A stretch of DNA of 64,000 nt, taken from Haliotis rufescens (lineage: Eukaryota). Positions 9,111-51,529 of this stretch are shown here, in pieces. Location: NCBI RefSeq assembly GCF_023055435.1, contig NW_025964235.1, positions 868,001 through 932,000 of the forward strand, given 5' to 3'. Made by a program: the position numbers and the translations under genes. Positions within the stretch are counted from its first letter, which is position 1, and each line of letters starts with the position of its first letter. Below the pieces are notes generated by a model. The model did no database searches. It was not told the origin of the DNA and was given only the letters and a program-made list of their open reading frames with translations.

Positions 9111-9393
9111 AAGGACGGCAGGGGAAGTGGGACAAGTACCAAGGGATAAATAACCCAGGATTGTGTGTGCCGATCAATGTGTATGAGCAGAAATGAACAA
9201 GATATAAATGCTCAGGGATTGTGTGTCCATGGAGGGGAGGGGAGGGGAGGGGAGGGGAGGTGAAATGAATCAAAGACCATGCCCCCAAACAATCAAGTCG
9301 ATAGATGTCCACATAGAGAACCTTATTTCTATGCCTGAGAATTGTGTGTATCAATGGAAGTGTATGCTGGTGTAAGAGTTAATAAAAATTGCT

Positions 9394-10141
9394 GTTGGCT
9401 GTCAGAACCTTAGTAGTAACATTGAATGCAGTTGTTAGAACCTCAGTGGTAACATTGAACTTGGCTGTTAGAACCTTAGTGGCAACATTTAACTTGGCTG
9501 TTAGAACCTTAGTGGTAACATTGAACTTGGCTGTTAGAACCTCAGTGGCAACATTGAACTCAGCTGTTAGAACCTCAGTGGCAACATTGAACTTGGCTGT
9601 TAGAACCTTAGTGGTAACATTGAACTTGGCTGTTAGAACCTTAGCGGCAACATTGAACTTGGCTGTTAGAACATCAGTAGTAACATTGAACTTGGCTGTT
9701 AGAACCTTAGTGGCAACATTGAACTTGGCTGTTAGAACCTCAGTGGTAACATTGAACTTGGCTGTTAGAACCTTAGTTGTAACATTGAACTTGGCTGTTA
9801 GAACCTTAGTGGTAACATTGAACTTGGCTGTTAGAACCTTAGTGGCAACATTGAACTTGGCTGTTAGAACATCAGTAGTAACATTGAACTTGGCTGTTAG
9901 AACCTTAGTGGCAACATTGAACTTGGCTGTTAGAACCTCAGTGGTAACATTGAACTTGGCTGTTAGAACCTTAGTTGTAACATTGAAATTGGCTGTTAGA
10001 ACCTTAGTGGTAACATTGAACTTGGCTGTTAGAACCTTAGTGGTAACATTGAACTCAGCTGCTGCAACCTTAGTGGTAACATTCAACTTGGCTGTTAGAA
10101 CCTTAGTGATAACATTGAACTTGGCTGTTAGAGCCTCAGTA
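9394..10141. repeat. 33-bp minisatellite x about 22
   Basis: TTGGCTGTTAGAACCTTAGTGGTAACATTGAAC. Confidence 0.95.
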
Positions 10142-12725
10142 TTTGAGGTTACCGTATGTTTAATATAACCTGTGTGATTTATGATGTATGTTCAAAACTG
10201 TCAGTGCATACATCACAGTCAATGGTGTACAATTCAGAATTGCAGTGTTACTTATTACTTGTTGTCCAGGACAAGTGTAGTCACTGATCCACCATGACCA
10301 GCTGATTTCTCCAAGTTTGCACTAAAAAGAAGTCGTCTCCCAGGGACCACATTGTACATCATGCTGTCTTGCAACTCGTTGGTTGGGCACCAAGCAGACC
10401 CAGATCCAAACAACGTTGTGGACAGTTACTTGGCTGCAGACACAGTGTGAGCCTTGTATCTTTCACCTTCCAATCATAAGCAACATAAATCACAAATAAT
10501 GACGTTGCTGGAAAGACAAAACAGTGAGGATGCAGAAGCTGTTTTATTGATGTAGGGGTATGACATGATCACTACTGAACACATGAAATTGAGTAAGATA
10601 CTAATAAAATCATAAAACCAGGTAAATTGCACCAATCTTTAATTATCAAGGAATCACTATCCTACAACTATCTAAGGTTTCATTGCAATATCATTTCTGC
10701 AAGGTCAGCACATTATCCTATCCAAGGCCAGCCAACACCTTCGGCACAATGGACTCTACGACACTGTTGGTTACTCTCAGCACCAATAAGCATAGTCCCT
10801 GTAGGGATGAGAAAATACGGAGGCTGCATGCGGAGCATTGTCATACAACAAATACAATACATCCAAATTAAGTTATGTAACTTAAACAAAGTATCCCACT
10901 GGATAATGAGCAAATTAAAAACTATTTTTGACTTAAATGAATGTTCTGAGAGAAATTCTTGATGTTATCTGATGTATCCATGTTGTATGTTATATGATCA
11001 TTGCTAATGATCAACATATTCTTTTCTACTTTCAGAAAAGCATATACGTCTCTTTGGTGAATTACATTGTGATATTATATGGTACTCCCTGTGCCAATGT
11101 ATACTCAGATCCTACTGAAGAGGTCGAGCACTTTCATTCAACAGTGATGTGTGTATTAATGCAAAGGAGAAAAATATGTTAAAATTGTATTTTCCGATTA
11201 AACAGTATATAAAATAGCTGCCTTCCTTGTGGGGAAACTTCTGTGAAATTGGCATGATGACCAAGAGTGACATGTATGGGACTTTAGATGCTTAAAAATC
11301 ATGGGAGTAAAACAAGTAAGTAATAACAGGAGTATAATCACAAGACATCTCAGGACATAACATTACAATGGTCGCAAAGAATGATAGATCTAGACACAGT
11401 ATATTAAGTACTACCTTGACTCTAAAGACATGATAATACAATATTACACACACAGTCCAATAATGTTTTTAAAACTCATCTCACATACGACATGTAAAAA
11501 GAACTGACAAAACCAGAAGCATGCATTGATATTTATGGTAGGGTCAAACCCGATGACAAGTGTCCATGAATACAGGTTTCTACACAGGATGGGGAGCAAG
11601 GAAATGGGCTGGTCCCACAATATCTAGATGAACGCTGCTGATGGCGTTCAGTAACTGATATGCATAATACAACGTTGATGACAAACAAGGCAGAGGAAAG
11701 AGCAATTTTGTACTGTCCGATATTGTTCAAGATAAATGAACAGATACCCTTTAACCAGGAGGTATAATAAGCAGATAAACTGATTGTCAACAAGAACATG
11801 GAAGTGTGCAGCAACTGGTGCCTGTGTTCTAACAATGCCTTGGCAAAGGCTCCATAACGAGATTTAATGACAGCAGCATCTACAGACAATGGACAGAGAG
11901 AAGCTATGGTTTTCTTCATCCGCTTCCCTAACACAAGGATAACTAGTCATTCCAAACAGAACATAGAATTGTGGGCAAACTGACAGAAAATATGAAATGT
12001 CTACTTGTTTGAAGGGTAGCATGGGTACTTCTCTATTAATACATGTACACATTCATTGAGATGTCAATACAGCAATGTTACAACTTACATTTTCATTTTA
12101 TTCAACTGGTGTAGCATAGGAACAGAAGCTCTTGTGTGTGATGATGTGTAAAGACTGATAACAAGGTTTGGTGTCGTATAACAGAATCAAAATGCCTAGA
12201 TATATATATCTCATAAAATAATAAGAAACAAATATTGAACTAGGGAGGTGTGAAGGTTGTGTAATTTAACCATTAAAGTGAGTTAGTATGCTTTTATGCA
12301 TACAGTATTCCAGTCATATCACTGTGTGTCAGCTTAATGTGGGGGAAATGCCTGAAGTGATGCAGGTCTCGGACGTCTATGAGCACAGGTATGGTGCAAA
12401 TCGGGATTCGAACCCACAATCATAGGATACAACTCTGCACAGCAAATTGTAGCGAATTGGATGATGGGGCACCCATGCTCTCTTAACCATTACATATGAA
12501 CCTTATCATATACAGGGAATTATTAAATGCATTTCTTGGAAGGAGAGAGTTTAAAGCACTTATGTAATGAGATGGAAAAAAATACATTGCAGTCATCAAT
12601 CATTCAAAAGCACAATGCACAGAGATGTCCTCATATAGTTTATAGCACTAAAGAGTTTTGCAAATATTCATGATTATTTCCATTCATTTTTCTGACAACC
12701 TTGCCCTTTCATGGTCAATCTGTCT

Positions 12726-14866: not shown

Positions 14867-19205
<4,339 letters not shown>

Positions 19206-20699
19206 CTGATTAACTTTTGTGTCAAACCCTGAAACAAACCCTGAAATATTTTACAAAAATATACAAAGATAGTGTGAGTATCTAAATCACGTAAACATGG
19301 AAAATATCATCTTTGAAATTTGACATACTGATATCATATATAAAGTCACTCTGAGCACTGTTTAGACATTAAAAAGTAAAGAATGAAATCTGTCAAAACT
19401 TTTACAGCTTCCCCCATGTTGATGTTGCAAAATCTGTACAATGTGTTGGCTAAACATGCTAAAGCTTAAACATTTATTAGGGCCTATAGACTTATTAACT
19501 GCATTTTAATTTGCAACAAATTGGTCACCTTGGTCATTTGTTGGTAAGGAATGTTTCATTGTTTTTCACCATGGTGACAGTTGTTCTTGATGTTTACACG
19601 GCACAATTTTGTTATTGGGAATGTTATTGGCAACATTAAAACATGCTAAATAATGAATATGTTAAAGGTATCATGTGAGTAGAAATAACTATGGATAATG
19701 GCAGATCAATAGAAATATATATCAATCAAAGTATTGTACTTCAAACAGTGTATCATTGGTACTCTCATAATGCTAATAACAGATTGGCATATGATGATTG
19801 TGAATAATGACAATTATTGTACTTTCAACAATGTTCAATATTACTCATTTCAGAGTTGTGGAAATTGTCTCCATAATACTTGTTTGTGTTGCACTCACAC
19901 GCAGATTTCGTGTTTAGGTTAATGTCTTCTCGAAATATTTGTTTGCTCAAATATTTTAAAGTGAGAATATGAATACATGGCAGATAGATATACAGTAAAA
20001 TACATCCAACCTTAGCATGATTATTAGAATTATCTGTTCTGATAATTTCTGAACATGACAAGACTGAAGAGAATATAGGATTGGCAACTGACATGTACTT
20101 TGCCAGTCCCTGGTATCCTTTGCATCAAACATAATACAAAAAAGAGGGAAACATGCCCCCTTCAAAACTCAGAAACATAAGATCGATCTATTTCAATGTA
20201 AATATATAAAATGCATAATTCGCTGTGGTACATAAAGATAAGGACTGTCAAAGTACATCCTACCAGTGCGAACATGGTGACGGCCACACTCAGCATGTTC
20301 AGCCACTGTGGTGTTGTTGTTTTTCTATTACTAGGCTAATCACTTACACTAGCATAGTTCAGTCAGTGGGAAAGAAACTTATGCCTGAAATCCCCTTTTA
20401 ATTCCAAACGGTGCTTTCTAAATGTGTTTATCAACCTCAGCTGACACAAAGATATGACCTGATGATGTCAGCAAGATCACTAGCCACTGTTTATCCTGTT
20501 CATAATCTGACAGTGACTGACAGGTCAAGATCTTCAACTGGTGGCAGACTGACGGGATATTCACAGCTTTAAACCTTCTGTTTCGCAGTTAATACGACAT
20601 AACTTTGTACTTACGGTATGCATAATTAAGAAAAACAGAATCTCGATGTCCGATTGCATTACTTGCGTGAACAATCACTGTCGAAAGAAAGTGACAATG

Positions 20700-26820: not shown

Positions 26821-28832
26821 CATAGTCATGAGGCTGTAAAATAAATTATAACTATTACAGGGTGTGTACATACCATCCTGTATTCGCCAGACCCCTTAGG
26901 TTGAGATATAAGGCCCCCGGGTGTCGCCAGGGACGTCCTCGCTCCTATACCTGTCACCGTCAGCTCACTACAATAGGTGTGAAGCCAGACAAAGTGCCAG
27001 ACACCTAGTCCCTGACTGTCCACATCCCAGTATTAAGTTATCACACTTGAATTTGTTGCCAGGAAACGATATATATACACACTTGTTTAAACGTCTCGGC
27101 CCAAACTTGTCTTTTGTAGTTGACTCAGCACAGATAAAGGCTACTGAGGTTATGATGAAACTCGGGACTTCAGTCCAACAAGGAGCGGTCGGTCGGCAGG
27201 TCAGAAAGCTGGTTCCCGGCTCCCGATGCGCGTCGTCCAAACGCCTGTCTCCCATATACTTAGGACTTAATTCATATGCCAGACTTTTTTCCGAACCCTG
27301 GCGACAGAACAGTCATTTTCTGATGCGTAAACAATGTCAATTTGCTGTTTCAGCAAACAAAACACAGAAGTGTCTAAATCGATCGAGTAACGAGTTAATG
27401 CACATTTTAGAGCATTAACTCTATTCAACATTGGAGTGTTACGAAGGTGTCACATCCTGGGAAGGAGCTTGTTATGACGCGTCAAGCAGATGGCGTCATG
27501 AAAAACTATGACGTCATCATGTCTGTATAGAGAGCTCCGCGAACGGGCTATCGCTGTGAGGAGCATGACCCTGTTCACATTTTGAGTTACCATTTAAAAC
27601 CCTGGTGGACGCAAGGCACGTCAGACACTGAAAGATGGTACTAGGTAAATTTGCACTTAGTTTTACACGTGACCTATGGCAGAGATCGTCCTCACGAGAA
27701 GTTGTGGTACTGTATTCTAAAGGTGCTCCACTTATTGTTACCCTGCCTGGCTTGGCATTTTGGGTACAAAGCAGGGACTGGTTGGCTTGTAAAGTGTATC
27801 TGAGTGGGGTATCTATAATAAACTGCTGCATGGTATCTCAGTGGTCTACCACGATAAAACCGGCTTATATCGGGACTAGTACAAACAACTACATACACAC
27901 GTGCAGGCAGTGTGTGAAATCAACACTACTAACCACCCAGGCAAGCTATATGATTTTTACTTGCCAGTTTTAGATTTAGGTAGCATGTTTTATTTTATAT
28001 ACAAAGTGCAAAGAGATATCTGGTAGAAGAGAAAGAAAATGTATTTCAAGTTTCAATAAGTATAAAACGTCAATATTTTATATCAAACATTCTGAACTAG
28101 ACCATCACATGCACATTCCTGAAATCAACCACTTAGAATCTAGATACTGACTCTTTTAAAGGAAGCACTCGTTTCGAACTATCATATTTGACACCAAAAA
28201 GACAATATTATAGCTCATTTGATAGAAAATCAAGTCAGTCCGCCTGACCACTTTGAGTTTATTTTAACTTGCCAGAAAGAAAATATAGTAGCTACTGGCG
28301 ACCGGACAGATGGGCCCCCGTGCATGCACGCCTGTATAGGAGATAATCTTGAACGCGACGTTTAACCCTATTTATAGTCACAGTCACAATGGTATTGACG
28401 TCATAGACGTCCATTGTGCATTATCAACATACATGGAGTACTAAACGAGTCCCCGTTAGATACCCCCTTACTACATCGAGTGTATTTCAAAACCTACCGA
28501 ACGAGGGACAACCACGATGCTTGCACTACCACAATACAAAATAGAAAGCCGTATACTATGTTTCTAACTTAATTTTCGCGAGTTGAGTGATATATCCCAG
28601 TCAACTGAAAACTCTTGACTAGACTCCAGTTAAATGTGTCAACAATACAGTTTTGAGATGCATGCCCAGTGAAAAAAATAGCGGGGTAGGTTAGGTGCTA
28701 CCAACTTCTCCATTATGCGTGATAAAGGTGTGTTGCTATTAAACGGGCGGGGGCGTGTTTTTATCGACGAGTGTTGATATATTTAATATTAAAAGACACG
28801 GGAGTAAGGTTAAATTTTATCATCCAAAACGT

Positions 28833-30456
28833 TTTTTATATGATTTTATTTCTTTTTGGGGTACACAAACAATATGTTTACAGAATATAGTTCACATGCA
28901 AACTTAAATGCATACAAGTTACAAAGTATATATCTATAGATGATAACAAAAACAAAACAAACTATTCCAGTGTCATATTGTTGGATTGTGCAAGTTCGTG
29001 GTTTTAAACGAATAGGTGGTGACAGAGAGACCAAAATGTCATGAACTGTGTGTATTTACATTGTGAATATGATATATTTCTGTCGATGTAATATGAATCG
29101 GTTATTTCTTGTTTGATGCGTGGGAAGTTTGGTATGGTGTAGGAAATGTTTGATTTGAATATGTGTTGCTTTGTTACAGTTATAATATGATTTAATACAT
29201 CATTTCGTTTTTGTTGATTTCCTAATAAAATTGTCAATTTTGGAAATTCTAGTTCTATTCCAGTTTTGTTTTTGATATATTGTATAAGGTTGTTCCAGCA
29301 GGGTCTAGTAATTAACATGCATTCCAAAAAAAAGATAAACCAAAGCAGCACTTAAAAAATTGGAGACCAATTTCGCTATTAAATGTTTCCTATAAGATAA
29401 CATCAGCAACAATAGCAAATAGAATAAAAAAAGTTCTGCCAACAATAATTAACGAAGATCAAAGAGGTTTTATGTCAAAACGATACATTGGAGAATGCAC
29501 TAGATTAATTTATGATATTATGGACTTTACTGAATCATGCATGGAAATCCCATGGTTGTTGTTATTTATAGACTTTGAAAAGGCGTTGATTCAGTAGACT
29601 GGGTTTTCATCCAAGAAGCTTTGACCTTTTTATATATTTTGGACCTTCTAAGTTAAGCACTGGATAAGAACATTCTATCACCATATAAAATCTAGTGTTT
29701 AAGTTAACGGTTTAATGCTACGCACTAATAAAAATATAAACGGAATTAGGATCGACGAGATAGAATATCTAATTTCCCAATTCGCAGACGACACATCTCT
29801 CATATAAGATGGAACTGAAAATTGTCTCCAAAACACCATGACAACTCTTCAAACATATGCGTCTTTTTCAGGCCTAAAAATTTACACAAGCAAAACGCAA
29901 GTGTTGTGGGTTGGCTCACAACGCTTCTCTGATAAATCTCTGTGCAAAAGTAGGAATATCGATTGGTCAAGAAAAAGTTTTACTCTTCTCGGTATCATTT
30001 TTACTCACAATTTGGCAGAAATGGTAGAGTGAGTAAGTGAGTATGGTTTTACGCCGCTTTTAGCAATATTCCAGCAATATCACGGCGGGGGATACCAGAA
30101 ATGGGCTTCACACATTGTAGCCATGTCGGGAATCGAACCCGGGTCTTCTGCGTGACGAGCGAAAGAAATGGTAGAAAGAAAATACAAAGATAAACTTAAA
30201 AGTTTAAAAATCATCATGAACTCATGGTTATCACGTGACCTGACCCCATTAGGTAGAATTACTGTACTAAAAAGTCTTATTTTACCTAAACTAACCCACC
30301 TTTTCTCAACCCTACCTAATCCAAGTGAAAGGTTTATAAAAGAACTCGAAACACTGTGTTTTCGTTTTATATGGAAAAATAAACCAGACGATATAAGTAG
30401 AAATATTATGATGAAACCTTATGAAGAGGGAGGTTTAAGAGTGCCTGATTTTAAAA
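28833..30456. mobile_element. L1/Tx1-clade LINE, 5'-truncated and 5'-inverted, degenerate
   Basis: The ORF2 C-terminus, AATAAA and A-tail lie on - (28833-about 29333). The RT segment (KNWRPISLLN..YKI, QRGF, DFEKA, SQFADD, EGGLRVP) lies on + (about 29325-30456). A 14-bp TSD ATCATCCAAAACGT sits at 28819-28832 and 30457-30470. Confidence 0.88.
30029..30162 (-). mobile_element. tRNA-derived SINE family A, 5'-truncated, nested in the LINE
   Basis: Matches the 54087 copy; TSD AGAAATGGTAGA on both sides. Confidence 0.85.
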
Positions 30457-30559
30457 ATCATCCAAAACGTGCCTCCACAGGAGAAATCACTTTGCAGAAT
30501 ATTGTGACGTCATCGATTACCATGACGTCACCATCTCTGCAATTGAGGCAGGTTAGTTA

Positions 30560-30798
30560 TGTTTGTTTGTTGTTTAACGCCGTACTCAGCAATATTCCAG
30601 CTGTATGACGGCGGTCTGTAAATAATCGAGTATGGACCAGACATCCAATGATTGACTTCATGAATATCGATCCCTGCAATTAGGATACGATGACATGCAT
30701 CAACCAAGTCAGCGAGCCTGACCACCCGATCCCGTTACCCGCCTCTTACGGAAAGCTTAGGTTGCTGAAGACCAATTCTACCCCAGAACTTCACGGGC
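30560..30798 (-). mobile_element. Short retroposon family C (no tRNA head, (AAAC)n tail)
   Basis: Consensus CCCGTGAAGATCCGGGTTAGAAT..GTCTTCAGCAACCCATGCTTGTCGTAAGAGGCGACTAACGGGATCGGGTGG...GCTGGAATATTGCTGAGTGCGGCGTTAAACAACAAAC. There are at least 15 copies or fragments in the window. Confidence 0.85.
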
Positions 30799-30857: not shown

Positions 30858-31368
30858 TGATTTTGGATGATAAATATAATCTTACGCGTGTGTCTTTTAT
30901 AACAAATATATCAACACGAGTCGATAAAAAGTTAAAGCCTCGGATGTTTAAACTTGTATTGACGCGTTGATATATTTTATATCAAAAGACACCGGGTGAT
31001 ATTCTCTATTTCATCCTTCTTTTTCAGTTTGTAAACAAACAAGTGTCCTGTGTGTAAAAATTACAACGTCGCCTCTTTCAATAACAGCACAGAGAGGTAT
31101 ATTTTCACTGAAAGAACCGGTCGTGTTCAGAGTTAACCAGAATCAGTAGCGGTGGGATTAGTGACGTAATTTGTTTGTGACAACATAATAACTGGTGGCA
31201 TCATAACGGTCTCACCAGAGATAAGCAAGTTTTGGATGATAAATGGAGAATCTCACCCAAGTGTCTTCTGATATGAAATATATCTACATGAGTCGATAAA
31301 CGTTTAAACTTTTATTGGCGAGTGTTGATATATTTGATATCAAAAGGCACAAGGGTGAGATTCTAGTT
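30858..31368. mobile_element. Hairpin-ended non-autonomous element family (unclassified)
   Basis: Two imperfect palindromes of about 140 bp starting TTTTGGATGATAAAT (30860-31018, 31230-31368). Related sequence lies at 28760-28832, 30457-30530 and 32220-32460. Confidence 0.5.
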
Positions 31369-33234
31369 ATTATTACTTGCCCGTGAAGAGATCACCCGTT
31401 TAATAAACATACAGCTGTATTACACATTGTGTAATACCAAAATGCGTGCTTATGTACTCTCGCAACACGTTTCACGAACAAATATTGAACGCTCTCAACA
31501 TACCTTGGCTTATTCAACGACGTTGTGTGTGGAGATGATAGATCACTGAGGGGAACTTATGCACACCCGATGACCCCAGCAACCTTGTTGCTAGGCTGAC
31601 GTCACATGGCATTGTTTCGCCGAAGGATCTTGCAACAAAATTCCACAAATTACGTCATCGGGTATTGTGACGTGATTGTAAACTTTGAGGTGCAAGGCCC
31701 CGTTCCACAAGGCGATCGTACTGTAGCGCAACGACAGTCGTTGGTCTAAGTAAAGTATGTGAGTTGCGATAACCTTAACGCTACGATAATTTTGTGGAAC
31801 GGACGCCTGAATTCTAAAGGTGGACCATTGTATGGTATTAAATTCATACGTTTCAACTTTTGACGTGTTTGAAGTATTACTCAACTCAATCCAACTCAAT
31901 TGTATTATGCCGTGGATCGTGTAGGTGTCAGCCTATTCACACTCGACAGTATAATTCTAAAAACGTTATAAATGGCAAGTAAAAAATAAAATACTAAACT
32001 CGCACCCGTGTAAAACCAATTTTATGAAACTCGTGAATCGCTTTCGCTCGTCAGATACCACAACTATTCACTCGTTTCATAAGATTGGTATTACACGGAA
32101 GCTCGTTTAGTATTCTATATTTATCCAACATCATTCTTTCAACTTTTTCTGTTTAGACATTAATAAGCAGTGTCTTGGGTGTAAAAAGTACTGCTAACAG
32201 CTTCAGTAGCAGCGCCGTTAGTGATGTCACTTGATTGTGATGTCATGGTAACAAATGACATCACAATGGTCTGCAAAGCATTGTGATGCAATTTCATTGT
32301 AATGATATCTACAATGTAGATATCGCTTGATCTCACCCAAGCGATATCTCCCGTGGGAGCCAGTTTTGGATGATAAATGACATTCGCGTATATTAATCTA
32401 TGTATGTAATTATATATACTTAGGTGACACATCCATTGCTCCATTGATCTAGATATCAAACGTTGTTTGAATATGAATATTTTGATCTGAAGGTGATGAA
32501 CCTAGCCAGCCACTCTTTAGCCATATAGTATGATATACTATTTTACATTTAAATCACCTACAATAAAAGACATGGTCTGTGGTATTAGAATTCACGCTTT
32601 CTCATTCTTGGTGAAAAATTGGATAACAAAATGTTTGATATAAGTTTAGCAGTTGGACACAATTCCAGGGCGGGGAAGACCTTCATTTGGCTTGGATCTA
32701 ACAAATAGCGATTATTCGTCAAACATCTCTACGAAAGGATTATACTAGTGTTTTACTACAGTTAGTTTCACATGTTATCCTTATTCAAGTTTCATGACAC
32801 GTTTGGCTACATTTATTTTCTTAGCTTGCTCAGGCAGAGACCATAAACTAGTCTATTGTATGGTCTCTGCACTTAGGTGAACCCACTGTCACGTTATAAT
32901 GTTCACCATATAATCTTTGTATGAAGTTCATTCCGGGCGTGGTAATGTGTTCAAACACATATGGTGATTCACTACAACTCTACCCTTCGCTCACTCCGAT
33001 GTAATATCCCTGTCCAAGATATGCATAACGAATGTGTGCCGCCCATAACATGAACCTGTGGCTGAATAGTGTTGTGGCTGGCTGGTAATCAATAAATATA
33101 TTGTGTCCTCCTCCCGCTGGTTCTAGTATTATAAACTACATATTACAAATTCATGTCAGGGGTTCACACAAGGGTTCTGTGTTCGCCATCACTGCATGCA
33201 TGAGTAGGAAAACTACGAAAATATCACAGCCATT

Positions 33235-33324: not shown

Positions 33325-36300
33325 ATGGACGTGGGAAATGCTTGGAAAGTTTTGCTGCTTTTCTGCATCTGCAGCCTTGTTTGTGGAAAGACAGCAGACA
33401 AGCCGATAGAACTTACCGAGGACAACTGGCAGGACATATTGGAAGGAGAATGGATGGTTGAATTGTGAGTTGTCTCATGCGGAAGTTATCTGGTGGATCG
33501 CGTGACCCCTATTTTCGTTATAGATCACACGTCTCAAATCATTGACTTTAGTTGCTCACACGGTGGTTTGTTTATTTACAGTGAGTCTGTTTTTGATTTG
33601 TGATTTTGTATTATTTTTCATTGCATAATTTGAAAATGATGTAGATCTGTTTTTGATTAACGTATTATATAGCATCAATGACGTGTGTGGCTACACTTAG
33701 AAGAACGCTATGTCATAATTTTAAGTTCCTTGTGGAGTTCTTCAGTGTGCACACAGTGGATGCATCGTGGCAGTAGATGATTGAGCGAGGATGTTGTAGA
33801 ACAAACTAGCACCACAGTCCCTATCCCATTCATGTCTGCAGCTTCTCAATGGGCGTACTGAACAAATGGATAATTGGGAGACATGTATAATAAAGATCTA
33901 GATTCTTAGCTGTTGCTGACAAACTTAGAAAAATTAGGTTGAACTTCGTCATTTGGGACAGTACTGAAGACGTTTCGTGTGCAGTGAGAGATTCCTGTCC
34001 ATGAATGTTGAACTGCGGTGAGGGTGACGTGAATATGTGGTGTTCATGCTCTATATGTCATTTATGTCGACTTGCCACGTCTATTGGCCCACATCCACTG
34101 ACCCGTGAGTAAACCTTCCACCCCTGCTGTTATTATCTCAACATACACCTTGATTATGTTTCTTGGTTTGTCGCAAACCTTTCCAGATTTCACTGACTGA
34201 TATACAGTATATGTCCGCATATTAGCCGAATTTTGAGGATACTATTTACAACATCATAAACCCAATTCACTCACTCACTCATACTTGTATGGCATTTATT
34301 TATAGACCGATGGACAGAAATGAATTTAATGACATTAAAGAATTTCACTGATAGACCAATTGTTAACCTATGTGAAGGATGCCAACTGCAAGCATCGTCA
34401 CAAACAGTCAGCCAGTGTTGGACAGTGAGCTGCTATTTAAACACTTAAAGTGAGAGTGAATATTGCTTGTATTTGACCAGTGTCGAAATAAGTGCCTGCC
34501 TGCGGTTGGTGACGTTTTTGTCGGGCTGCATGAAATTTGCCTCCACCTGCCCAACTATCTGGCAGATAATTTTAAGACTACTTAGGCATTAAGTTATATC
34601 ATAAGTCCTTGTAGATTCTCATGTAGTTGTTTGCCTTATTTCAACTGAATCAAGACACGATTTGTCTCTTATCTTTCGTGATTTTTCTCATAGTGTCGTT
34701 GGTGATCCATTATTAACATGAATGAAAGGAAGTAACTGCGCCTTCATTGGTCAATCTAGTCTTAGTTATAGTGTATTAGGATTGATATTAAGACACATAA
34801 TAATCAGACATACTTTTTTTTATAGGGCTGGAAAACATAATACGCAAGGTTTCATTTAAATTTAATATTGTCTGAATGAGGGCAGGTAACTTTCAAGATA
34901 GGCAGGCAACATTTATGGGTCACCTGCCCGACTGCCTTGTTGGGTTATGAAATTATTTCAAACACTGGAGATGACCCAGCTTTATGACAACATCCCCAAA
35001 GTGCAAGCCCCTAATATCCCATGGTGTTATTCAGGAAAACTCAGTTTGTTTTGGCTAGGTTGTTAAATGCTCACTGTTGTATGTAAATCAGTACACACAT
35101 GTTTTTTATAGGACATATAAATCGTCTCATTGTTTGACATTTTGCTCAATCATTGTTCCGCAGGCATCATGTAAACAAACGGTTGAGATATGACAGTGGT
35201 ATGTCAGTAAACAAACGATTGAGATATGACAGTGGTATATTAGTAAACAAATGATTATGATAGGACAATGGTATGTCTGTAAACAAACGATTATGATAGG
35301 ACAATGGTATGTCAGTAAACAAACAATTAAGATAGGACAATGGTATGTCAGTAAACAAACGATTGAGATATGACAATGGTATGTCAGTAAACAAACAATT
35401 AAGATAGGATAATTGTATGTCAGTAAACAAACGATTTAGATATGACAATGGTTTTTCTGTAGTCAAACGATTAAGATAGGACAATCATATGTCAGTATAT
35501 GACGATGGTTAAAGATAGGAGATTGGTTTGTCTGTAAACAAACGATTAAGATAGGACAATGGTGTGTCAGTAAACAAACGATTAAGATAGGAGATTGGTA
35601 TGGCAGTATACAGACTGCGTGGTCTGCTTCAGCATGGCGCCGTGGTGCCCGGCATGCCGGTCCTTCAAGGAGACGTGGGACAGTTTTGCCAAATGGAGCA
35701 AGGATCTGGATGTAAATGTTGGCATAATCGACGTCACCGAGAACCCAGGTATGGAAGTAACATGTTCACATTAAAAACAGAGTTTATGTACCACTGTGTG
35801 ATCTCTGTATGCTGTGGTCAATGTTTCCTGCTGCTTGGGGTCGTTCATACTGTCGGCCACTGGTTTGTATGACAAAGGCGTATTCATCGTCAGGCCACAA
35901 TGATTATGTAAAGTCATCATTGATTGACTGCTAACATGCTGTGTTAAATTGTGGCATGGTATCACATGGCAACCGACATTACTCCAAGCTAGTACAACCA
36001 GACACACACATAATATGAGGTAGAAATTGGCACTAGTCCTATAGTCCTTGCCGAACTGTCCAATAGTTAGGTATCATAAGGACTAGTATACCCATGAAGT
36101 TCCAGGTAGAGAATAAGTCTTCAGCAACCCATGCTTGTCGTAGGAGGCGACTAACAGGATTGGGTGGTCAGGCTCGCTATTTGGTTGATGTATGACATCA
36201 TTATTGCAGTTGCGTAGATCGATGCTCATGATGTCATTCACTGGATTGCCTGGTCCAGATCGCCGTAATATAGCTGGAATATAGCTGAGTGCGGCATTAA

Positions 36301-39300: not shown

Positions 39301-41696
39301 CCTATCAAACAATTTTGTCTTAAAAATCCTAAATTTCTAAGGCTGCCCCAATGATGTATCCGAGCCAAAATGTCACATAAGTGTGAAATAGGAAGTTGTC
39401 CTTGCTGTTTATGAAATGTGTGCTGTCTCCGCTCCAGTCCTTCTACACGACCATGACCTCGGAGTACGGCATCCCGGAGTGGGGGTGCTACCTCATCTTC
39501 GCTGTCCTCACCATTGTCTCAGGCCTCCTCCTCGGGCTGGTGAGTAGCGGGGGACATATTGGGCAACAAACAGGTTGGGAAAATCTGATTGGTTGCAAAT
39601 GATGTTTAATCTGATTCGAAACTTGTAACTTTTCTTCAGGATCTATACCAAAACAGGGTGTTGGGGTAACGTAGTTGTTAAAGCGTTCACTTCTCATCCT
39701 GAAGACCCGGGTTCAATTCTCCACTTGGGTAGTGTGAATCCCATTGCTGGTGTCCCCTGCCGTGATATTGCTGAAATATTGCTAAAAGTGGCATAAAACC
39801 ATACTCACTCACTCATTCTTTCACATTACAGTAGGAGAAAGAAGTTGTTATCCATAAGTTTTTGGTCTACTTTAACTCTTCTGGACTTATTCTTCTGGAG
39901 TACATTTCTGAATAAGAGTGACAAATGTGTCATTTAGCCTGGTGAACTATGTATTGTTTTTAGATTGCAGATAAATATGTGTTTTCAGAATTTTCCATGT
40001 TATTGTGCATTTGACAGGACATTTTGCATGTATATCTATGGCTAATATTTTTTATTTTATTTTCAAAAACATTTTGCGCCCATCAAGTATTCAGTTTGAG
40101 AAAACCTGAAAGTAGTTTATTTGTGGACGTCATTATTATAAGCTGAATAACTGAAACACAGCTGCGGGAGATCACATTGAAGTCGCTGATCATTTTGATT
40201 ATTCGTGTAAGAAACCTTCTAAATATGAGTGGGGCTGCAGGGTAACCCTAGTGTTTAAAGCATTTGCTCGTGATGCTGAAGGCGTGGGTTTGATTTGAGT
40301 CAGTTCTACTTTTCCGATGGATATGTAACATATCAGTTCAATCTGTGGAACTTCTTGAGACAGCTCGGTTTGTCACTACTTTGAAGTTTTTTAAATGCCA
40401 AATATATATGCCTCTTTAAATAGTGGTGGTATGTATCTCTAAAGCATTGCCCCGTGACTTGCTGCTACAGCTCATCGTGTGTTGCTGTGATGTGCTGTTT
40501 CCGCCCAAATACCAAAGTGTGAGAGTCATTCAGGAGCAGCCTCAAGGGATGGGAGATACTATGGACAGGGAGGACAAGGTAGGTTTGTCATGACACAGGT
40601 GTACTCCGGACAGGGAGGACAAGGTAGGTCGTCCTGACACAGGTGTACTCTGGACAGGGAGGACAAGGTAGGTCGTCATGACACAGGTGTACTCCGGACA
40701 AGGAGGATAAGGTAGGTCGTGATGACACAGGTGTACTCCGGACAGGGAGGACAAGGTAGGTCATCCTGACACAGGTGTACTCCGGACAGGGAGGACAAGG
40801 TAGGTCGTCCTGACACAGGTGTACTCTGGACAGGGAGGACAAGGTAGGTCGTCATGACACAGGTATACTCCGGACAGGGAGGACAAGGTAGGTCGTGATG
40901 ACACAGGTGTACTCCGGACAGGGAGGACAAGGTAGGTCATCCTGACACAGGTATACTCCGGACAGGGAGGACAAGGTAGGTCGTCATGACACAGGTGTAC
41001 TCCGGACAGGGAGGATAAGGTAGGTCGTGATGACACAGGTGTACTCCGGACAGGGAGGACAAGGTAGGTCATCCTGACACAGGTATACTCCGGACAGGGA
41101 GGACAAGGTAGGTCGTCATGACACAGGTGTACTCCGGACAGGGAGGACAAGGTAGGTCGTCATGACACAGGTATACTCCGGACAGGGAGGACAAGGTAGG
41201 TCATCCTGACACAGGTGTACTCCGGACAGGGAGGACAAGGTAGGTCGTCATGACACAGGTGTACTCCGGACAGGGAGGACAAGGTAGGTCGTCATGACAC
41301 AGGTGTACTCCGGCCAGGGAGGACAAGGTAGGTCGTCATGACACAGGTGTACTCCGGACAGGGAGGACAAGGCAGGTCGTCATGACACAGGTGTACTCCG
41401 GACAGGGAGGGCAAGGCAGGTCGTCATGACAAAGGTGTACTCCGGACAGGGAGGGCAAAGTAGGTCGTCATGACACAGGTGCACTCCAGACACAAGCCGA
41501 GGTAGGTCGTCATGACACAGGTGTGTGGACGCATTATTCAACAACATCTGAACGGAATGGCGAATGCTGTATCTGACACACAGTATTGTACTTGCAGGAT
41601 GATGATATCATTGATGACACAAAACAAACAGATAGTGATGATGATGATGAAACTTCTTCAACCACACGACGGAGACAAGTACAGAAGGCGGAATGA
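33325..41696 (+). CDS. TMX1: Thioredoxin-related transmembrane protein 1, 8 exons, about 261 aa
   Basis: Exons 33325-33464, 35633-35748, 36875-36920, 37252-37380, 38477-38522, 39438-39539, 40471-40578 and 41598-41696 (786 nt in frame). Has a signal peptide, GEWMVEFMAPWCPAC active site, GLSGRFFVTALPTLYH, a TM helix with juxtamembrane CCC, and an acidic tail with RRR. Confidence 0.93.
34478..34967. mobile_element. hAT-like MITE
   Basis: CAGTGTCGAAATAA / TTATTTCAAACACTG termini and subterminal CCTGCCC repeats; TSD degraded. Confidence 0.5.
35170..35608. repeat. 36-bp minisatellite x about 12
   Basis: GTAAACAAACGATTRAGATAKGACAATGGTATGTCA. Confidence 0.9.
36089..36312 (+). mobile_element. Family C retroposon
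   Basis: Near full-length copy. Confidence 0.8.
39120..39319. mobile_element. Second, shorter Penelope-like inverted remnant (TMX1 intron 5)
   Basis: Same family as 5272-5677, including the tail CATCCGTCAACTTCTAAGTAATGCCTATCAAACAATTTTGT and the motif TTGACAAC...TATACCGAAACGTC at 39195-39227. Confidence 0.7.
39655..39815 (+). mobile_element. SINE family A, diverged
   Basis: Sequence similarity to the 54087 copy; (ACTC)n tail. Confidence 0.8.
40563..41523. repeat. 44-bp minisatellite x about 21 spanning the TMX1 exon 7 / intron 7 junction
   Basis: GGACAGGGAGGACAAG|GTAGGTCGTCATGACACAGGTGTACTCC. Confidence 0.95.
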
Positions 41697-44600: not shown

Positions 44601-45329
44601 TGTGAGTTAAGTCTGACGCACTGAAATATTGTTTATTAATCTATATTGTGTTAATTGCGCACCATGATATTGTCATACTGGAATTACCATATGCCATCGA
44701 TTGTGTATGAATGATATACAAAGTTCTGTTTAATTTATGATTTACCATGTAATTGTATAACTTCCACATGGAGATAAAGCGTGCAACTTTTACATGTACC
44801 CCACTTGTCCTATGATTCTGCTTTTACAAGACATGATTCACGATGCATGTTTTTAATGTCCTTGACACTTACAATAACTTTAGTTCAATTAATTAGTGTT
44901 CCTATGTGTCTGTTGACCAAACACTGCCCAGATAGAGTTGGAGGGAAATGGGTATACCGATACTGGTTGATGAACTCGTTACGAAAGGAGTTCACAGAAA
45001 TGGTTTGCACAGCAGCGAAATCTATGCATTAATTAATGTTCAGTTACATGTTTTTTTATAAGAAAAGCGCAACTAGTTTTAGATTGAAAGCTTCAACCAT
45101 TCCTGCTACATGTTTGCCATTTTGACATACTTCCTCTGTTGATGAAGCCTAACAGCTGAGATGATGTTCTCATTAATAAGCAATAGCTCTGAAAGTCATC
45201 ACAGAAAAGTTTAATTCAGCAGCTATGTTGTGCCAACTGCCTCAAGTGGCATGGTCATCAGTGCTTTTAATGCTATTTTTGTAAATAAAAATATTTTCTA
45301 TTTTCGATCTGTTGCTCCTTTCCACCCAT

Positions 45330-47645
45330 TGTGGTGAAGCAGGTGCAGAGGGAGTCCTGAGAGTGGAGATTGGAAGGGTACAATGGCCGCTTTGTGTGGT
45401 GAAGCAGGTGCAGAGGGAGTCCTGAGAGTGGGGATTGGAAGGGTACAATGGCTGCTGTTTGGTGAAGCAGGTGCAGAAGGAGTCCTGAGAGAGGGGATTG
45501 GAAGGGTACAATGGCTGCTGTGTGGTGAAGTGTGAGTACAATGGCCGCTGTGTGGTGAAGCAGGTGCAGAGGGAGTCCTGAGAGTGGGGATTGGAAGGGT
45601 ACAATGGCCATTGTGTGGTGAAGCAGGTGCAGAGAGAGTCCTGAGAGTGGGGATTGGAAGGGTACAATGGCTGCTGTGTGGTGAAGCAGGTGCAGAAGGA
45701 GTCCTGAGAGAGGGGATTGGAAGGGTACAATGGCTGCTGTGTGGTGAAGCAGGTGCAAAAGGAGTCCTGAGAGTGGGGATTGGAAGGGTACAATGGCTGC
45801 TGTGTGGTGAAGCAGGTGCAGAGAGAGTCCTGAGAGAGGGGATTGGAAGGGTACAATGGCTGCTGTGTGGTGAAGCAGGTGCAAAAGGAGTCCTGAGAGT
45901 GGGGATTGGAAGGGTACAATGGCTGCTGTGTGGTGAAGCAGGTGCAGAAGGAGTCCTGAGAGTGGGGATTGGAAGGGTACAATGGCTGCTGTGTGGTGAA
46001 GTGTGAGTACAATGGCCGCTGTGTGGTGAAGCAGGTGCAGAGGGAGTCCTGAGAGTGGGGATTGGAAGGGTACAATGGCCATTGTGTGGTGAAGCAGGTG
46101 CAGAGAGAGTCCTGAGAGTGGGGATTGGAAGGGTACAATGGCTGCTGTGTGGTGAAGCAGGTGCAGAAGGAGTCCTGAGAGAGGGGATTGGAAGGGTACA
46201 ATGGCTGCTGTGTGGTGAAGCAGGTGCAGAAGGAGTCCTGAGAGTGGGGATTGGAAGGGTACAATGGCTGCTGTGTGGTGAAGCAGGTGCAAAAGGAGTC
46301 CTGAGAGTGGGGATTGGAAGGGTACAATGGCTGCTGTGTGGTGAAGCAGGTGCAGAGAGAGTCCTGAGAGAGGGGATTGGAAGGGTACAATGGCTGCTGT
46401 GTGGTGAAGCAGGTGCAAAAGGAGTCCTGAGAGTGGGGATTGGAAGGGTACAATGGCTGCTGTGTGGTGAAGCAGGTGCAGAAGGAGTCCTGAGAGTGGG
46501 GATTGGAAGGGTACAATGGCTGCTGTGTGGTGAAGTGTGAGTACAATGGCCGCTGTGTGGTGAAGCAGGTGCAGAGAGAGTCCTGAGAGTGGGGATTGGA
46601 AGGGTACAATGGCTGCTGTGTGGTGAAGCAGGTGCAGAAGGAGCCCTGAGAGAGGGGATTGGAAGGGTACAATGGCTGCTGTGTGGTGAAGCAGGTGCAA
46701 AAGGAGTCCTGAGAGTAGGGATTGGAAGGGTCCAATGGCTGCTGTGTGGTGAAGCAGGTGCAGAAGGAGTCCTGAGAGTGGGGATTGGAAGGGTACAATG
46801 GCTGCTGTGTGGTGAAGCAGGTGCAAAAGGAGTCCTGAGAGTGGGGATTGGAAGGGTACAATGGTTGCTTTGTGGTGAAGCTGGTGGAGAGGGAGTCCTG
46901 AGAGTGGGGATTGGAAGGGTACAATGGCCGTTGTGTGGTGAAGCTGGTGGAGAGGGAGTCCTGAGAGTGGGGATTGGAAGGGTACAATGGCTGCTGTGTG
47001 GTGAAGCAGGTGCAGAGGGAGTCCTGCGAGTGGGGATTGGAAGGGTACAATGGCTGCTGTGTGATGAAGCAGGTGCAAAAGGAGTCCTGAGAGTGGGGAT
47101 TGGAAGGGTACAATGGTTGCTGTGTATGGTGAAGCAGGTGCAGAGGGGGTCCTGAGAGTGGGGATTTGAAGGGTTCAATGGCCGCTTTGTGTGGTGAAGC
47201 AGGCGTAGAGGGAGTCATGAGAGTGGTGATTGGATGGGTTACGACGGCTGTTGTGTGGTGAAGAGGCGCAGAGGGAGTCATGAGAGTGGAGATTGAATGG
47301 GTACAATGGCCGTTTTGTTGAAGTGTGAGTACAATGGCTGCTGTGTGGTGAAGCAGGTGCAGAGGGAGTCATGAGAGTGGAGATTGGATGGGTACAATAG
47401 CCGTTGTGTGGTGAAGTGTGAGTACAATGGCTGCTGTGTATTGTGAAGCAGGGATTGGGTGGGTACAATGGCCGCTGTGTGTTGTGAAGCAGGGATAGGG
47501 TGGGGATTGCGTGGGTACAATAGCCGCTGTGTATTGTGAAGCAGTGATATGGTGGGGATTGGCTGGGTACAATGGCCTGTGTGTATTGTGAAGCAGGGAA
47601 AAGGATGGGGATTGGCTGGGTACAATGGCCGCTGTGTATTGTGAA
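45330..47645. repeat. 63-bp minisatellite with higher-order structure
   Basis: TGTGGTGAAGCAGGTGCAGAGGGAGTCCTGAGAGTGGGGATTGGAAGGGTACAATGGCTGCTG x about 30, punctuated by 30-bp short units and decaying at the right end. Confidence 0.95.
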
Positions 47646-48831
47646 GGAAAGGGGTAGAGTGGAGATTGAGAGAGGTGATTCTGTATCTATGTCCATGTGC
47701 GAAATCGGCACCCCCGGAAGCACTCGTTAAGTCTCCAAGATCGTCATCACCATGTTAATGTATGAGAATTGTGATCCCTTCGCGCTAAGATCGCTTTGTA
47801 GCACAGGATCCAGGTCCAGGACATGACGGATGCCATTCATGTAGTTCCATAGGGCCGTAAAAGGGTTGGCAGTCCTTGCTTCAGGTTCACAATTCCTTTA
47901 ACTGAAACGAAGAGAAACCTGTAAGTGGTGGATTATAACCTTTCGTCACACGACCTGTAAAGATAGAATAGGTCATCAGCAAAAGGCGACTAACAATTGT
48001 GTGGATTGATGCTCATGATGTCAATCACTGGATCCAGACTCGATGATTTACAGACCGCCGTCATATAGCTGGAATATTGCTGAGTACGGCGTTAAACAAC
48101 AAACAAACAAACGAATAAACACAAAGGACACAAATTGTCATCAGCAGCTGGCATATGCCGGTACAATATGTAGAAAGTTGTTTGACAGCCCTTCACTTGT
48201 TGTGGGGTTGGGACTCACGACACACTGACCAATTACGTTTTACAAAAATACATTGTTTCAAATCCTCGGCCCCACAGCAAGTCAAGTCCCTGGGCAAACG
48301 TTGCTGGCAAACGTTGCTGCCCAGCCGCGGTAGGATGTGTGTTTGTTTGTTCGTTGTTTGAGCATCAATTCACTCAATTTGGATACGATGACATGTACAA
48401 CCAAATCAGCGAGCCTTATCCCGTTATTCGCATAGTTGCCTTTTAGGACAAGCATGGACTAGGAGAAACAATTATATTCTTTATGATGTTTCAGAAGGAG
48501 ATTGTGAATCCCATGAAGCATGCAGAGATAAGCATGTTTTAGATACTATTAACAGAGCTAGAAATATTCCAGCTATATGACGGCTGTCTGTAAAAAATCG
48601 AGACTGGACCAGACAATCCAGCGATTGATATCGTGAGAATAGATCCACGCAACTGGGATACGATGACATGCATCAAACCGAGCTGCCCACCCGATCCCGT
48701 TAGTCGCCTTTAAAGCAAGTTAGGTTGCTGAAGAGATATTCTAACCCGGATCTTCACGAGTCGACCTAACATATAAACAACGGCGTGTACTTAAATCCTA
48801 TATTTTTATTCGGTGATTTTACCATATACAC

Positions 48832-49354: not shown

Positions 49355-50645
49355 ATCACGTGAGATTGCGAGTGAGGAATTGGCTTCAGTCTTTAGCGGG
49401 TAGTGTGGACTAGAGTGAGTGAGTGAGTATGGTTTAACGCCGCTTTTAACAGTATTCCAGTTATATCACGGCGTGTCAGCTTGTTGTGGGAGGAAAGCCC
49501 GAAGTGATGCAGGTCTCAGACGTTTACCACTTCGGTGAAACCCACGAGCACGGGTATGGAGCTGACAAACCTAGAAACAATTGGGGCGAAGCGGGATTCG
49601 AACCCACAATCATAGGGTTCTGGCGTACCCAAGGGACGCAACTCTGCACAGCGAATCGCGGCGCCTTAGACGACTGGGCCACCCGTGCCCCCAGTGTGGA
49701 CTAGAACTAGACTTGATAACAAGCCAGGGAGGGATATGGCACGTGGTCCTACTTGTTCCCTGGTGCCTAGGGGAATCCCAATCAAACTTCAACTTCCCGG
49801 TAAGTTTAATCTATCCATTCTCCTTCAGCACCAGGTCACGTGAGACCCCGCGAGATTTAAAAGCAGGTCCACAGTACACACCTGATAAAACAGAACAGTT
49901 CTTTATAAAACATCATGTTTAATACTAAATACTAAAAACAATACAAAATGCTAAATACACACATGAAGAAAAAACTTGTTATAATCATTCTGAAATTTCA
50001 AATGTTGAGCTCATTGAGCTCAATACCCAGAGGAAACATGTTTCACGGGCTTACAATAAAACTTTGTAAACACATTCACAGAAAACCACCCAGCAGCTGC
50101 CATGACTGTTTGAATGGGTGCACCTATACAACTGGCTGCGCTGGTAGCAGCTGCCATGACTGTTTGAATGGGTGCACCTAGACTACTGGCTGTGCTGGCC
50201 TACTGCTATGTCCTAAAAACACAGTAATGTCAATATCAGCCTTTTGGGGTGGGTGGGTGGGTGGGGTGGGGGGTGGGGGTGTATTCTTTTACGACCCTGA
50301 CACAGTCTCTCTGCTTACGGTCCTTAAGTGACTCAACAGCAGTTGGTCATGGACACACATGGATCTGCCCGGTATACACTAGTCCTCTCACTCACCACAC
50401 ACAGTCTCTCATTCTCAAATCTCTCTAATTCTATAGGTTTTAAATGACTACCTGGTCCAGACTGCTTAACTAAATCAGTGAGAATAACAACTACTTTGTT
50501 GTTTGATTCTGACATATATTTCAATTTCAGCAAATGTAATGACTGAGCTCTTTGGCCAGAAACCAATGCTAATAACACATTAAATTTAAACGTCAAATCT
50601 TTGCGTGAGAGCTCAAAATTTTCTCCCAGTCTTTCCAAGTAAACT
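49355..50645 (-). mobile_element. DIRS-type retroelement relic (tyrosine recombinase fragment plus terminal region)
   Basis: LSRKDLTFK..LLALVSGQRAQSLHLL...DLVKQSGPGSHLKPIEL..F.NERLCVV, followed by a frameshifted IDITVF.GHS segment, which is typical of DIRS tyrosine recombinases. The terminal boundary is approximate. Confidence 0.72.
49413..49692 (-). mobile_element. tRNA-derived SINE family B
   Basis: Reverse-complement head GGGGCACGGGTGGCCCAGTCGTCTAAGGCGC...GGTTCGAATCCC; (ACTC)n tail; TSD AGTGTGGACTAGA. Confidence 0.85.
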
Positions 50646-51529
50646 TCGTTTTGGTGGACGATTTCGCCTGACGTTTTTATCGTCTGTTTTAGGCTATTTC
50701 CGTTTTTAAATTTGATTTTGGTCAAACATTTGTGATTAAGTATGCTCTATATTATTATAATCTGCAAAGTTGCTCTGTTGACTTTACTTGCCCTTTAATG
50801 TCCAATTACAATATAGCAACGAAACAACTGCCAACGTACACATTGAATTCAATGAACCTAAGGAGTTCCAAATATGCTACCTTATAATTGTATATACACC
50901 CATTACTATATGACATGAACTAGTAGGCCTATGGCGGGTTTTTTAGCTTTATGTGTCCTATTAACACTCTTGTATCATTTTACTCTTGACACAAACGTTT
51001 ACTTTTTTGTATTGTATTCAAATCATTCTCAAATGAAAATCCTATTTCTATATTGACTTCACTAATGATTTGCAAAAGGAAAACACTTAGTTTATCTGTA
51101 AGTCTTAAGTAGTTAATTTCAGATTGGTTATTACTTATAGTTTCATTTAAACAACAAAGTACCAAGGGATAAATCTGTTTAACTCTTTTAACCTTAGCAA
51201 AACTAGTGTGTACTAGAAAACATATATAAAAATACTTAGATCTTTAAAATAGGATACTATGGCTGTTTCTTAGAGGTAAACATTAATTTATTCAGTGCGG
51301 CCATTTCCGATTTTCAAGTGGTCAACCTGTTTTTTTAACAAGCATTCCAAGGCGATAAGTCATACTAATGTTGCTGCTTGTTTCTTTATTTGAACGATTC
51401 TTAGCTAAAAAGGCTCCAATATGCACGGCTATGATGGCTTCATTTGCTTCACTGCCTTAAGTATCATCCTCTGTTCATCCTTTGTTTATGTTCATGCTAC
51501 GTATTTGCACATCTAAGAGTAAATTTATG

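What the first reader, a model, noticed from the sequence alone, without database searches (positions are those of the whole stretch)
28819..30470. Twin-priming-type 5'-inverted L1/Tx1 insertion in an invertebrate
Seen: one insertion bounded by a 14-bp TSD (ATCATCCAAAACGT). The 3' end with AATAAA and A-tail reads leftward and the more 5' RT segment reads rightward. They join head to head at about 29321-29333 (ATTCCAAAAAAAA), which reads IPKK on + and FLEC on -, consistent with microhomology. The ORF2 sequence between the two pieces is missing. Known: this geometry is the signature of twin priming, best documented for mammalian L1. Inference: the mechanism also operates in this lineage's L1/Tx1 clade.
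Basis: partly seen in the sequence, partly recalled or inferred. Interest (0 to 1): 0.7.

Follow-up and report, generated by a model that had tools for sequence, protein, structure and literature searches.

The report
Front-flipped LINE insertion in an abalone
A dead jumping-gene (LINE) copy in what is likely an abalone genome lies between two copies of its 14-base landing site with its front part backwards, a layout likely made by the "twin priming" copying mishap known from human L1 elements; it is one old example of a known process in a new animal group.

Summary
The layout is real. An exact 14-mer flanks the insertion (28819-32, 30457-70) and occurs once, not twice, in the three other host-repeat copies in the window. 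Against a full-length L1-group ORF2 (P0001), aa ~529-889 read on + and aa ~1172-end, 3'UTR, AATAAA and A5 read on -, joined 5' end to 5' end. The inverted piece abuts the TSD with a probable 2-nt overlap. The neighbouring gene matches Haliotis TMX1. Twin priming is the best explanation (0.75). Corrections: the + piece runs to 29313, and 'FLEC' is one codon out of register (59 of 59 motif matches in relatives are C-x6-W), so the 13-nt microhomology is at best an offset complementarity. About 850 nt are missing and the inverted piece is the longer one, unlike human twin priming (median gap 14.5 bp); a later deletion across the junction could explain both. The halves share a sub-clade; one family is not proven. 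A nested SINE and a 93-nt deletion were missed. No genome-wide count was possible. This scan noted the same layout on other DNA (a cartilaginous fish and another animal). Verdict: known mechanism, new lineage, single copy.

The parts
28759..28818 (.). left part of a high-copy, palindromic host repeat (unclassified)
   Evidence: 85% over 72 nt to the copy at 30930-30861 and 76% to 31300-31229; summed contig depth 32,865 in bin 28748-28834 against 26-61 in the four flank bins, run X1
28819..28832 (+). target-site duplication, copy at the element's 3' end (last T ambiguous with the tail)
28833..28837 (-). short poly(A) tail (A5)
   Evidence: sequence
28838..29003 (-). 3' UTR with AATAAA at 28850-28845
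   Evidence: sequence; stop codon at 29006-29004
29004..29312 (-). forward piece: ORF2 C-terminus just after the CCHC/zf-RVT cysteine (P0001 aa ~1172-1272)
   Evidence: tblastn; 79 hits
29313..29333 (.). inversion junction zone; break at about 29312-29315; 29319-29333 also resembles F-x-E-C on -, one codon out of register
29313..30456 (+). inverted piece: RT and thumb (P0001 aa ~529-889), with stops and frameshifts
29710..29713 (+). site of an in-frame 93-nt deletion (P0001 aa 660-690, includes the QGDPLSP motif); a GTTT overlap is inferred from the relative's codons
   Evidence: gap; family contigs depart at 29713-29734
30017..30175 (-). nested 5'-truncated tRNA-type SINE (30029-30163) with 12-bp TSD AGAAATGGTAGA (30017-28, 30164-75)
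   Evidence: loose-end consensus at 30163; A/B-box reading is from established knowledge
30457..30470 (+). target-site duplication, copy at the element's 5' end; first 2 nt (AT) probably shared with the L1 template
   Evidence: 4 of 32 listed contig pieces, one in each run and probably one paralog, align to 30458
30471..30535 (.). right part of the host repeat
   Evidence: 30457-30492 81% to 32374-32339 and 30490-30535 83% to 32278-32233

Best explanation
This is one old, 5'-truncated L1-group LINE insertion whose front piece is inverted, likely made by twin priming at the moment of insertion. Shown: single TSD, head-to-head pieces, inverted piece abutting the TSD. Inferred sequence of events: the element's endonuclease nicked the + strand after 28832 and reverse transcription began on the poly(A); a second nick 14 nt away on the - strand freed an end (...GGATGAT-3') that paired through about 2 nt (AT) with the RNA at codon ~889 and primed a second cDNA running to ~ITCIPK; the two cDNA ends were joined and gaps filled. 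The ~850-nt gap arose either because the first cDNA stopped early and was joined through the offset 11-13-nt complementarity between the CIPK codons and the F-x-E-C codons, or because a later deletion removed the original junction (after inversion those two motifs lie as near-direct repeats). A SINE later inserted into the inverted piece.
For: TSD exact and single in 3 of 3 other host copies. Orientation and order of pieces match the twin-priming product described in PMC2912911 and bioRxiv 2024.08.27.596794. TSD length 14 lies in the 10-20 bp range reported for human inversions (PMC4245944). Probable 2-nt overlap at the TSD junction; about 70% of human inverted L1s have 2-5 bp there. Window, P0001 and P0002 group together in all four segments; C-terminus 41-48% within the group, 22-34% outside. 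Both halves have ~90% identical paralogs in the same runs, the 3' piece about 6-8 times deeper than the RT piece, as 5' truncation predicts. A single-copy contig spans flank, TSD and tail (28400-28868) in 4 of 4 runs from 4 studies. F-x-[DE]-C occurs at 2 per 15,556 nt on the antisense strand of four related loci, so one near the expected register is unlikely by chance (about 0.002, post hoc).
Against: Gap ~850 nt against a human median of 14.5 bp; forward piece 480 nt against ~1,090 nt of template for the inverted piece, whereas in human tumours the forward piece is 2.6-fold longer. A 2-nt AT overlap has about a 1 in 11 chance by itself and rests on probably one paralog. The first nick site (CGT/GC) is not the TTTT/A of human L1 and offers one T to pair with the tail. 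In RT segments the window is nearer P0001 than P0002 is (85 v 66, 62 v 58, 76 v 61%) but in the C-terminus it is not (47 v 48%), so one family is not proven. No listed contig piece spans the inversion junction or the right TSD junction, and at some private sites no contig in X1 showed the window's letter; SINE matches swamped those tables.
Confidence: 0.75

Rival explanations
1. Same single insertion event, but the inverted piece was copied from a second template (another L1 RNA in the particle, or a genomic L1 copy used during end-joining repair), not from the same RNA.
For: Uncouples the two break points and so explains the ~850-nt gap and the reversed length ratio; the C-terminus is not nearer P0001 than P0002 is. 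Templated insertions and two-RNA events are described for human L1.
Against: Both halves fall in the same sub-clade and show similar ~10% distance from paralogs; a later deletion explains the gap without a second template.
Confidence: 0.12
2. An ordinary collinear insertion was later inverted and partly deleted by DNA repair or recombination.
For: The copy is old and has been rearranged since (SINE, 93-nt deletion, frameshifts); short inverted similarity exists between the two break regions; the host repeat is palindromic.
Against: Needs a deletion that ends exactly at the edge of the TSD and leaves all 14 bp intact.
Confidence: 0.07
3. Two independent insertions of related LINEs lie head to head and the 14-mer pair is fortuitous or part of the host repeat.
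For: The 11-nt core of the 14-mer is a host-repeat motif, present in 3 other places in the window.
Against: Host copies have it once; left and right flanks continue the host repeat across the insertion; the + piece has no 3' end, tail or TSD of its own.
Confidence: 0.03
4. Assembly artefact joining two collapsed repeat copies.
For: The internal junction was not seen in an independent contig.
Against: Left junction present in 4 of 4 runs; at many private sites inside both pieces a residue of about single-copy depth lacks the family letter (my subtraction, table 3); a mis-join would not produce an exact TSD.
Confidence: 0.03

Closest known systems
Twin-primed (5'-deleted + 5'-inverted + internally deleted) human L1 insertions; model of Ostertag and Kazazian 2001 (not held; as described in PMC2912911 and bioRxiv 10.1101/2024.08.27.596794)
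   Same: One TSD of 10-20 bp, poly(A) piece in sense, upstream piece inverted and flush with the TSD, 5' ends joined, short overlap at the TSD junction, total length about 1.5 kb.
   Different: Mollusc host; gap ~850 nt versus median 14.5 bp; inverted piece longer than the forward piece; first nick not at TTTT/A; tail only A5.
Single inverted Nimb-2_DR insert in chicken DT40 cells (PMC4245944, passages)
   Same: Shows that a non-mammalian LINE in non-mammalian cells can give a 5' inversion.
   Different: Engineered assay, a different clade, vertebrate cells; that paper found no inversions for human L1 in DT40 or for ZfL2-1.
L1/Tx1-group ORF2 (P0001: APE endonuclease, RT, zf-RVT)
   Same: P0001 matches human L1 ORF2p at E 2e-99 and R2 proteins at about 1e-25; domains PF03372, PF00078, PF13966.
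   Different: The window copy holds only two fragments; L1 versus Tx1 clade was not resolved.
R2 'snap-back' junctions (PMC11371274, passages)
   Same: Antisense element sequence at the 5' junction.
   Different: Snap-back recopies sequence already in the cDNA; here the inverted piece lies upstream of everything in the forward piece.

Membership tests
twin-primed LINE insertion | one TSD enclosing both pieces, single at the empty site | tested here: met
   (paralogous host copies, 3 of 3 single; no orthologous empty site seen)
twin-primed LINE insertion | 3' piece in sense with poly(A) against one TSD | tested here: met
   tail only A5
twin-primed LINE insertion | upstream piece inverted, its 3'-most base flush with the other TSD, 5' ends joined | tested here: met
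twin-primed LINE insertion | complementarity between the second target end and the RNA (overlap at the TSD junction) | tested here: inconclusive
   2 nt, from 4 contig pieces ending at 30458 that are probably one paralog; near chance level
twin-primed LINE insertion | microcomplementarity at the inversion junction | tested here: inconclusive
   0-3 nt at the break, plus an offset 11-13-nt likeness inferred from protein motifs; family DNA across the break not obtained
twin-primed LINE insertion | both pieces from the same RNA / family | tested here: inconclusive
   same sub-clade in all four segments; no record links both halves at nucleotide level
twin-primed LINE insertion (typical of human L1, not defining) | small gap at the inversion point; forward piece longer than inverted piece | tested here: not met
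   ~850 nt and 480 v ~1,090 nt against 14.5 bp and 2.6-fold
L1/Tx1 group of non-LTR retrotransposons | ORF2 with N-terminal APE endonuclease, RT and C-terminal CCHC/zf-RVT, closest to L1 ORF2p | tested here: met
   on the full-length relative P0001; the window pieces are 47-85% identical to it
L1/Tx1 group of non-LTR retrotransposons | poly(A) 3' end and TSD of variable length | tested here: met
Tx1 clade as distinct from L1 clade | placement on an RT tree with labelled Tx1 and L1 references; often target-site specificity | not testable with these tools
   no labelled Tx1 reference sequence came from any call; one insertion cannot show target preference
mammalian L1 endonuclease target | first nick at 5'-TTTT/A-3' | tested here: not met
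   site reads CGT/GC; not filed as mammalian-type L1

The most novel reading that the evidence does not exclude
Twin priming is an ancestral ability of L1/Tx1-group ORF2 proteins that works in mollusc germlines without mammalian host factors or a T-rich primer, and in abalone the two cDNAs are joined across gaps of hundreds of bases through longer, offset complementarity; inverted copies would form a regular fraction of this family.
Probability: 0.3. Interest if true: 0.5.

Novelty: new member of a known kind. Interest (0 to 1): 0.3.

Why it matters
In cell assays 5' inversion was seen almost only for human L1 in human cells and was put down to element and host factors together (PMC4245944, passages). 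A natural example in a mollusc suggests that the capacity is older and wider, and mollusc assemblies would allow the rate, TSD length and gap size to be compared with the human figures. It also matters for repeat annotation, where such copies are split into two insertions (PMC11484939, passages). As one decayed copy it does not establish a rate and has no evident function.

Tried and rejected
No whole genome was held, so inverted versus truncated copies could not be counted; the window holds no second copy of the family. The short-word protein search with the C-terminal piece found nothing (33 candidates); the full HMMER search then found 79 relatives. The metagenome scan gave 4 loci at 47-63% identity, other families, collinear with P0001 and of no use for junction nucleotides. 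In one search two SINE families swamped the joint and loose-end tables, so absence of junction-spanning rows is uninformative. Rejected: the exact 13-nt IPKK/FLEC microhomology; cDNA snap-back (the inverted piece is not part of the forward piece); the 14-mer as a natively doubled host motif. Look-ups in this scan's notes by place and by sequence returned nothing. Paper searches returned nothing relevant by their listings.

Full report
Setting. The exon starting at 33325 translates to a signal peptide plus thioredoxin start; its only hit among 2 candidates is a TMX1-like protein of Haliotis asinina at 83%, whose 4 cluster members are all Haliotis. The window is therefore likely from an abalone. 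No whole genome was held.

The TSD. ATCATCCAAAACGT is exact at 28819 and 30457; two further near-matches lie at 31227 and 32361. Its 11-nt core occurs 5 times in the window: the two TSD copies and 3 host-repeat copies (30861, 31230, 32364), each once. The 70 nt left of the first TSD match the upstream sides of the 30861 and 31230 copies (scores 68 and 45, 0 of 500 shuffles as high) but not that of the 32364 copy (221 of 500). The 100 nt right of the second TSD match the downstream side of the 32364 copy (1 of 500 without the core; 81% over 36 nt with it and 83% over a further 46 nt) but not the other two (474 and 65 of 500). No single host copy matches both flanks at length, so this is a paralog test, not an orthologous empty site. 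The host repeat is palindromic (z -8.9) and high-copy.

The element. A search with the thumb piece gave 7 proteins among 247 candidates, the best a 1272-aa ORF2, P0001, with APE endonuclease, RT and zf-RVT domains and human L1 ORF2p as best solved relative (E 2e-99; R2 proteins about 1e-25). P0001 aa 533-889 align on + at 29328-30458 and aa 1166-1272 on - at 29333-29010; there are no other hits in the window. The - piece continues through a stop (29006-29004), a 3' UTR, AATAAA and A5 into the TSD. The + piece has stops and frameshifts, lacks aa 660-690 in frame, and holds a 135-bp SINE with a 12-bp TSD. Read in the element's sense: TSD, inverted piece (aa 889 back to ~529), junction, aa ~1172 to the end, tail, TSD. 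This is the 5'-deleted, 5'-inverted, internally deleted class described for human L1 (bioRxiv 10.1101/2024.08.27.596794, section 4 part 1 of 2).

Junctions. At the right TSD, 4 of 32 listed contig pieces (one in each run, probably one paralog) align to 30458, two bases into the TSD, and P0001 has the matching Asn: a probable 2-nt overlap, in the 2-5 bp range of about 70% of human inverted L1s (PMC2912911 section 12) but also about 1 in 11 by chance. At the inversion junction the + strand reads (I)TCIPK from 29313, as in P0001, P0002 and P0005, and one family contig aligns from 29313 and departs. On -, taking FLEC as the zinc-finger cysteine gives C-x7-W, while all 59 motif matches found among the 86 proteins held give C-x6-W. 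The break thus lies near 29312-29315 with 0-3 shared bases. Yet F-x-[DE]-C is rare on antisense strands (2 in 15,556 nt of four related loci), so its presence one codon from the expected place (about 0.002, post hoc) suggests that an offset 11-13-nt likeness guided the join. Family nucleotides upstream of the - piece were not obtained, so this stays inferred.

Same family? Window, P0001 and P0002 form one group in all four segments; for the C-terminus 41-48% within and 22-34% outside (P0001, P0002, P0005, P0037 and L002-L004 compared, L001 left out because its frame is broken, L002 lacks the first segment). Against this, the C-terminus is no nearer P0001 (47%) than P0002 is (48%), whereas the RT pieces are (85 v 66, 62 v 58, 76 v 61). 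In the four laid runs both halves have paralogs about 90% identical, and in X1 summed depth is 1,300-1,750 over the 3' coding piece and about 170-260 over the RT piece, against about 12 for a single-copy contig, as 5' truncation in one family would give. This is consistent with, not proof of, one family.

Reality and age. A single-copy contig covers 28400-28868 (flank, TSD, tail) in 4 of 4 runs from 4 studies, with 0, 4, 0 and 4 differences; one of these may be the assembly's source. No listed piece spans the inner junction or the right TSD, but the tables were cut by SINE matches. About 10% divergence, lesions and a nested SINE indicate an old insertion.

Mechanism. The inverted piece being flush with an intact TSD is what twin priming predicts and what later rearrangement would rarely give. 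Two features differ from human data: the ~850-nt gap (median 14.5 bp; 66% of 1,703 inversions have some deletion) and the inverted piece being over twice the forward piece (human forward 2.6-fold longer) (that preprint's supplementary size distribution could not be seen and bears on how unusual 850 nt is). Either the first cDNA stopped early, or a later deletion removed the original junction: after inversion the antisense CIPK codons and the F-x-E-C codons lie on one strand as near-direct repeats, and the copy has a second deletion with an inferred 4-nt overlap. Restoring the gap in thought gives about 1,330 nt forward and at least 1,090 nt inverted, closer to the human pattern. A second template is the main rival. 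The first nick (CGT/GC) is unlike human TTTT/A, which is unsurprising for a non-mammalian L1/Tx1 endonuclease (own knowledge).

What is known. PMC4245944 (passages) reports inversions only for human L1 in human cells, bar one Nimb-2_DR insert in chicken DT40, with TSDs of 10-20 bp. Ten full-text searches listed no paper whose title or abstract start describes twin-primed L1/Tx1 copies in an invertebrate. Passages read in PMC5389967, PMC6007223, PMC6895275, PMC11484939, PMC11371274, PMC13174262 and PMC12350158 cite the model only in references or for mammalian L1 and R2. The library lacks most subscription papers: Ostertag and Kazazian 2001 and Kojima and Okada 2009 were not held, so absence from print is not established. 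This scan's notes record the same layout in a cartilaginous fish and in another animal genome (unchecked AI notes).

Verdict. Real feature; a known mechanism most likely at work in a new lineage; one decayed copy. New member of a known kind, interest 0.3.

Noticed in passing
window 33325-33465 (+): First exon of a TMX1-like gene (83% to Haliotis asinina); the insertion lies about 2.9 kb upstream of its start codon.
   Followed up: partly
window 30017-30175: 5'-truncated tRNA-type SINE with (ACTC)n-like tail and 12-bp TSD nested in the LINE; very high copy, at least eight other matches in the window.
   Followed up: partly
window 30552-30797: Second very abundant SINE-like repeat directly right of the insertion, sharing its tail-side segment with the nested SINE.
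   Followed up: no
window 30861-31035, 31220-31390, 31982-32122, 32233-32378: Cluster of palindromic, MITE-like repeats sharing the TTTATCATCCAAAA motif; one folds with z -8.9. Family not identified.
   Followed up: partly
window 29710-29713: In-frame 93-nt deletion that removes the RT QGDPLSP motif; a GTTT overlap is inferred from the relative's codons.
   Followed up: partly
window 52869-53426 (-): ORF with two Cys/His-rich B-box-like motifs (TRIM-like by eye).
   Followed up: no
window 18468-19250 (-): 260-aa open exon of an unidentified, low-complexity-free protein.
   Followed up: no
window 50333-50746 (-): Fragment resembling a tyrosine-recombinase-type transposon protein by eye (LLALVSGQRAQSLHLL), not tested.
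   Followed up: no
window 9379-10191, 40761-41159, 45242-47754, 1857-2353: Long tandem-repeat arrays that give spurious ORFs.
   Followed up: no
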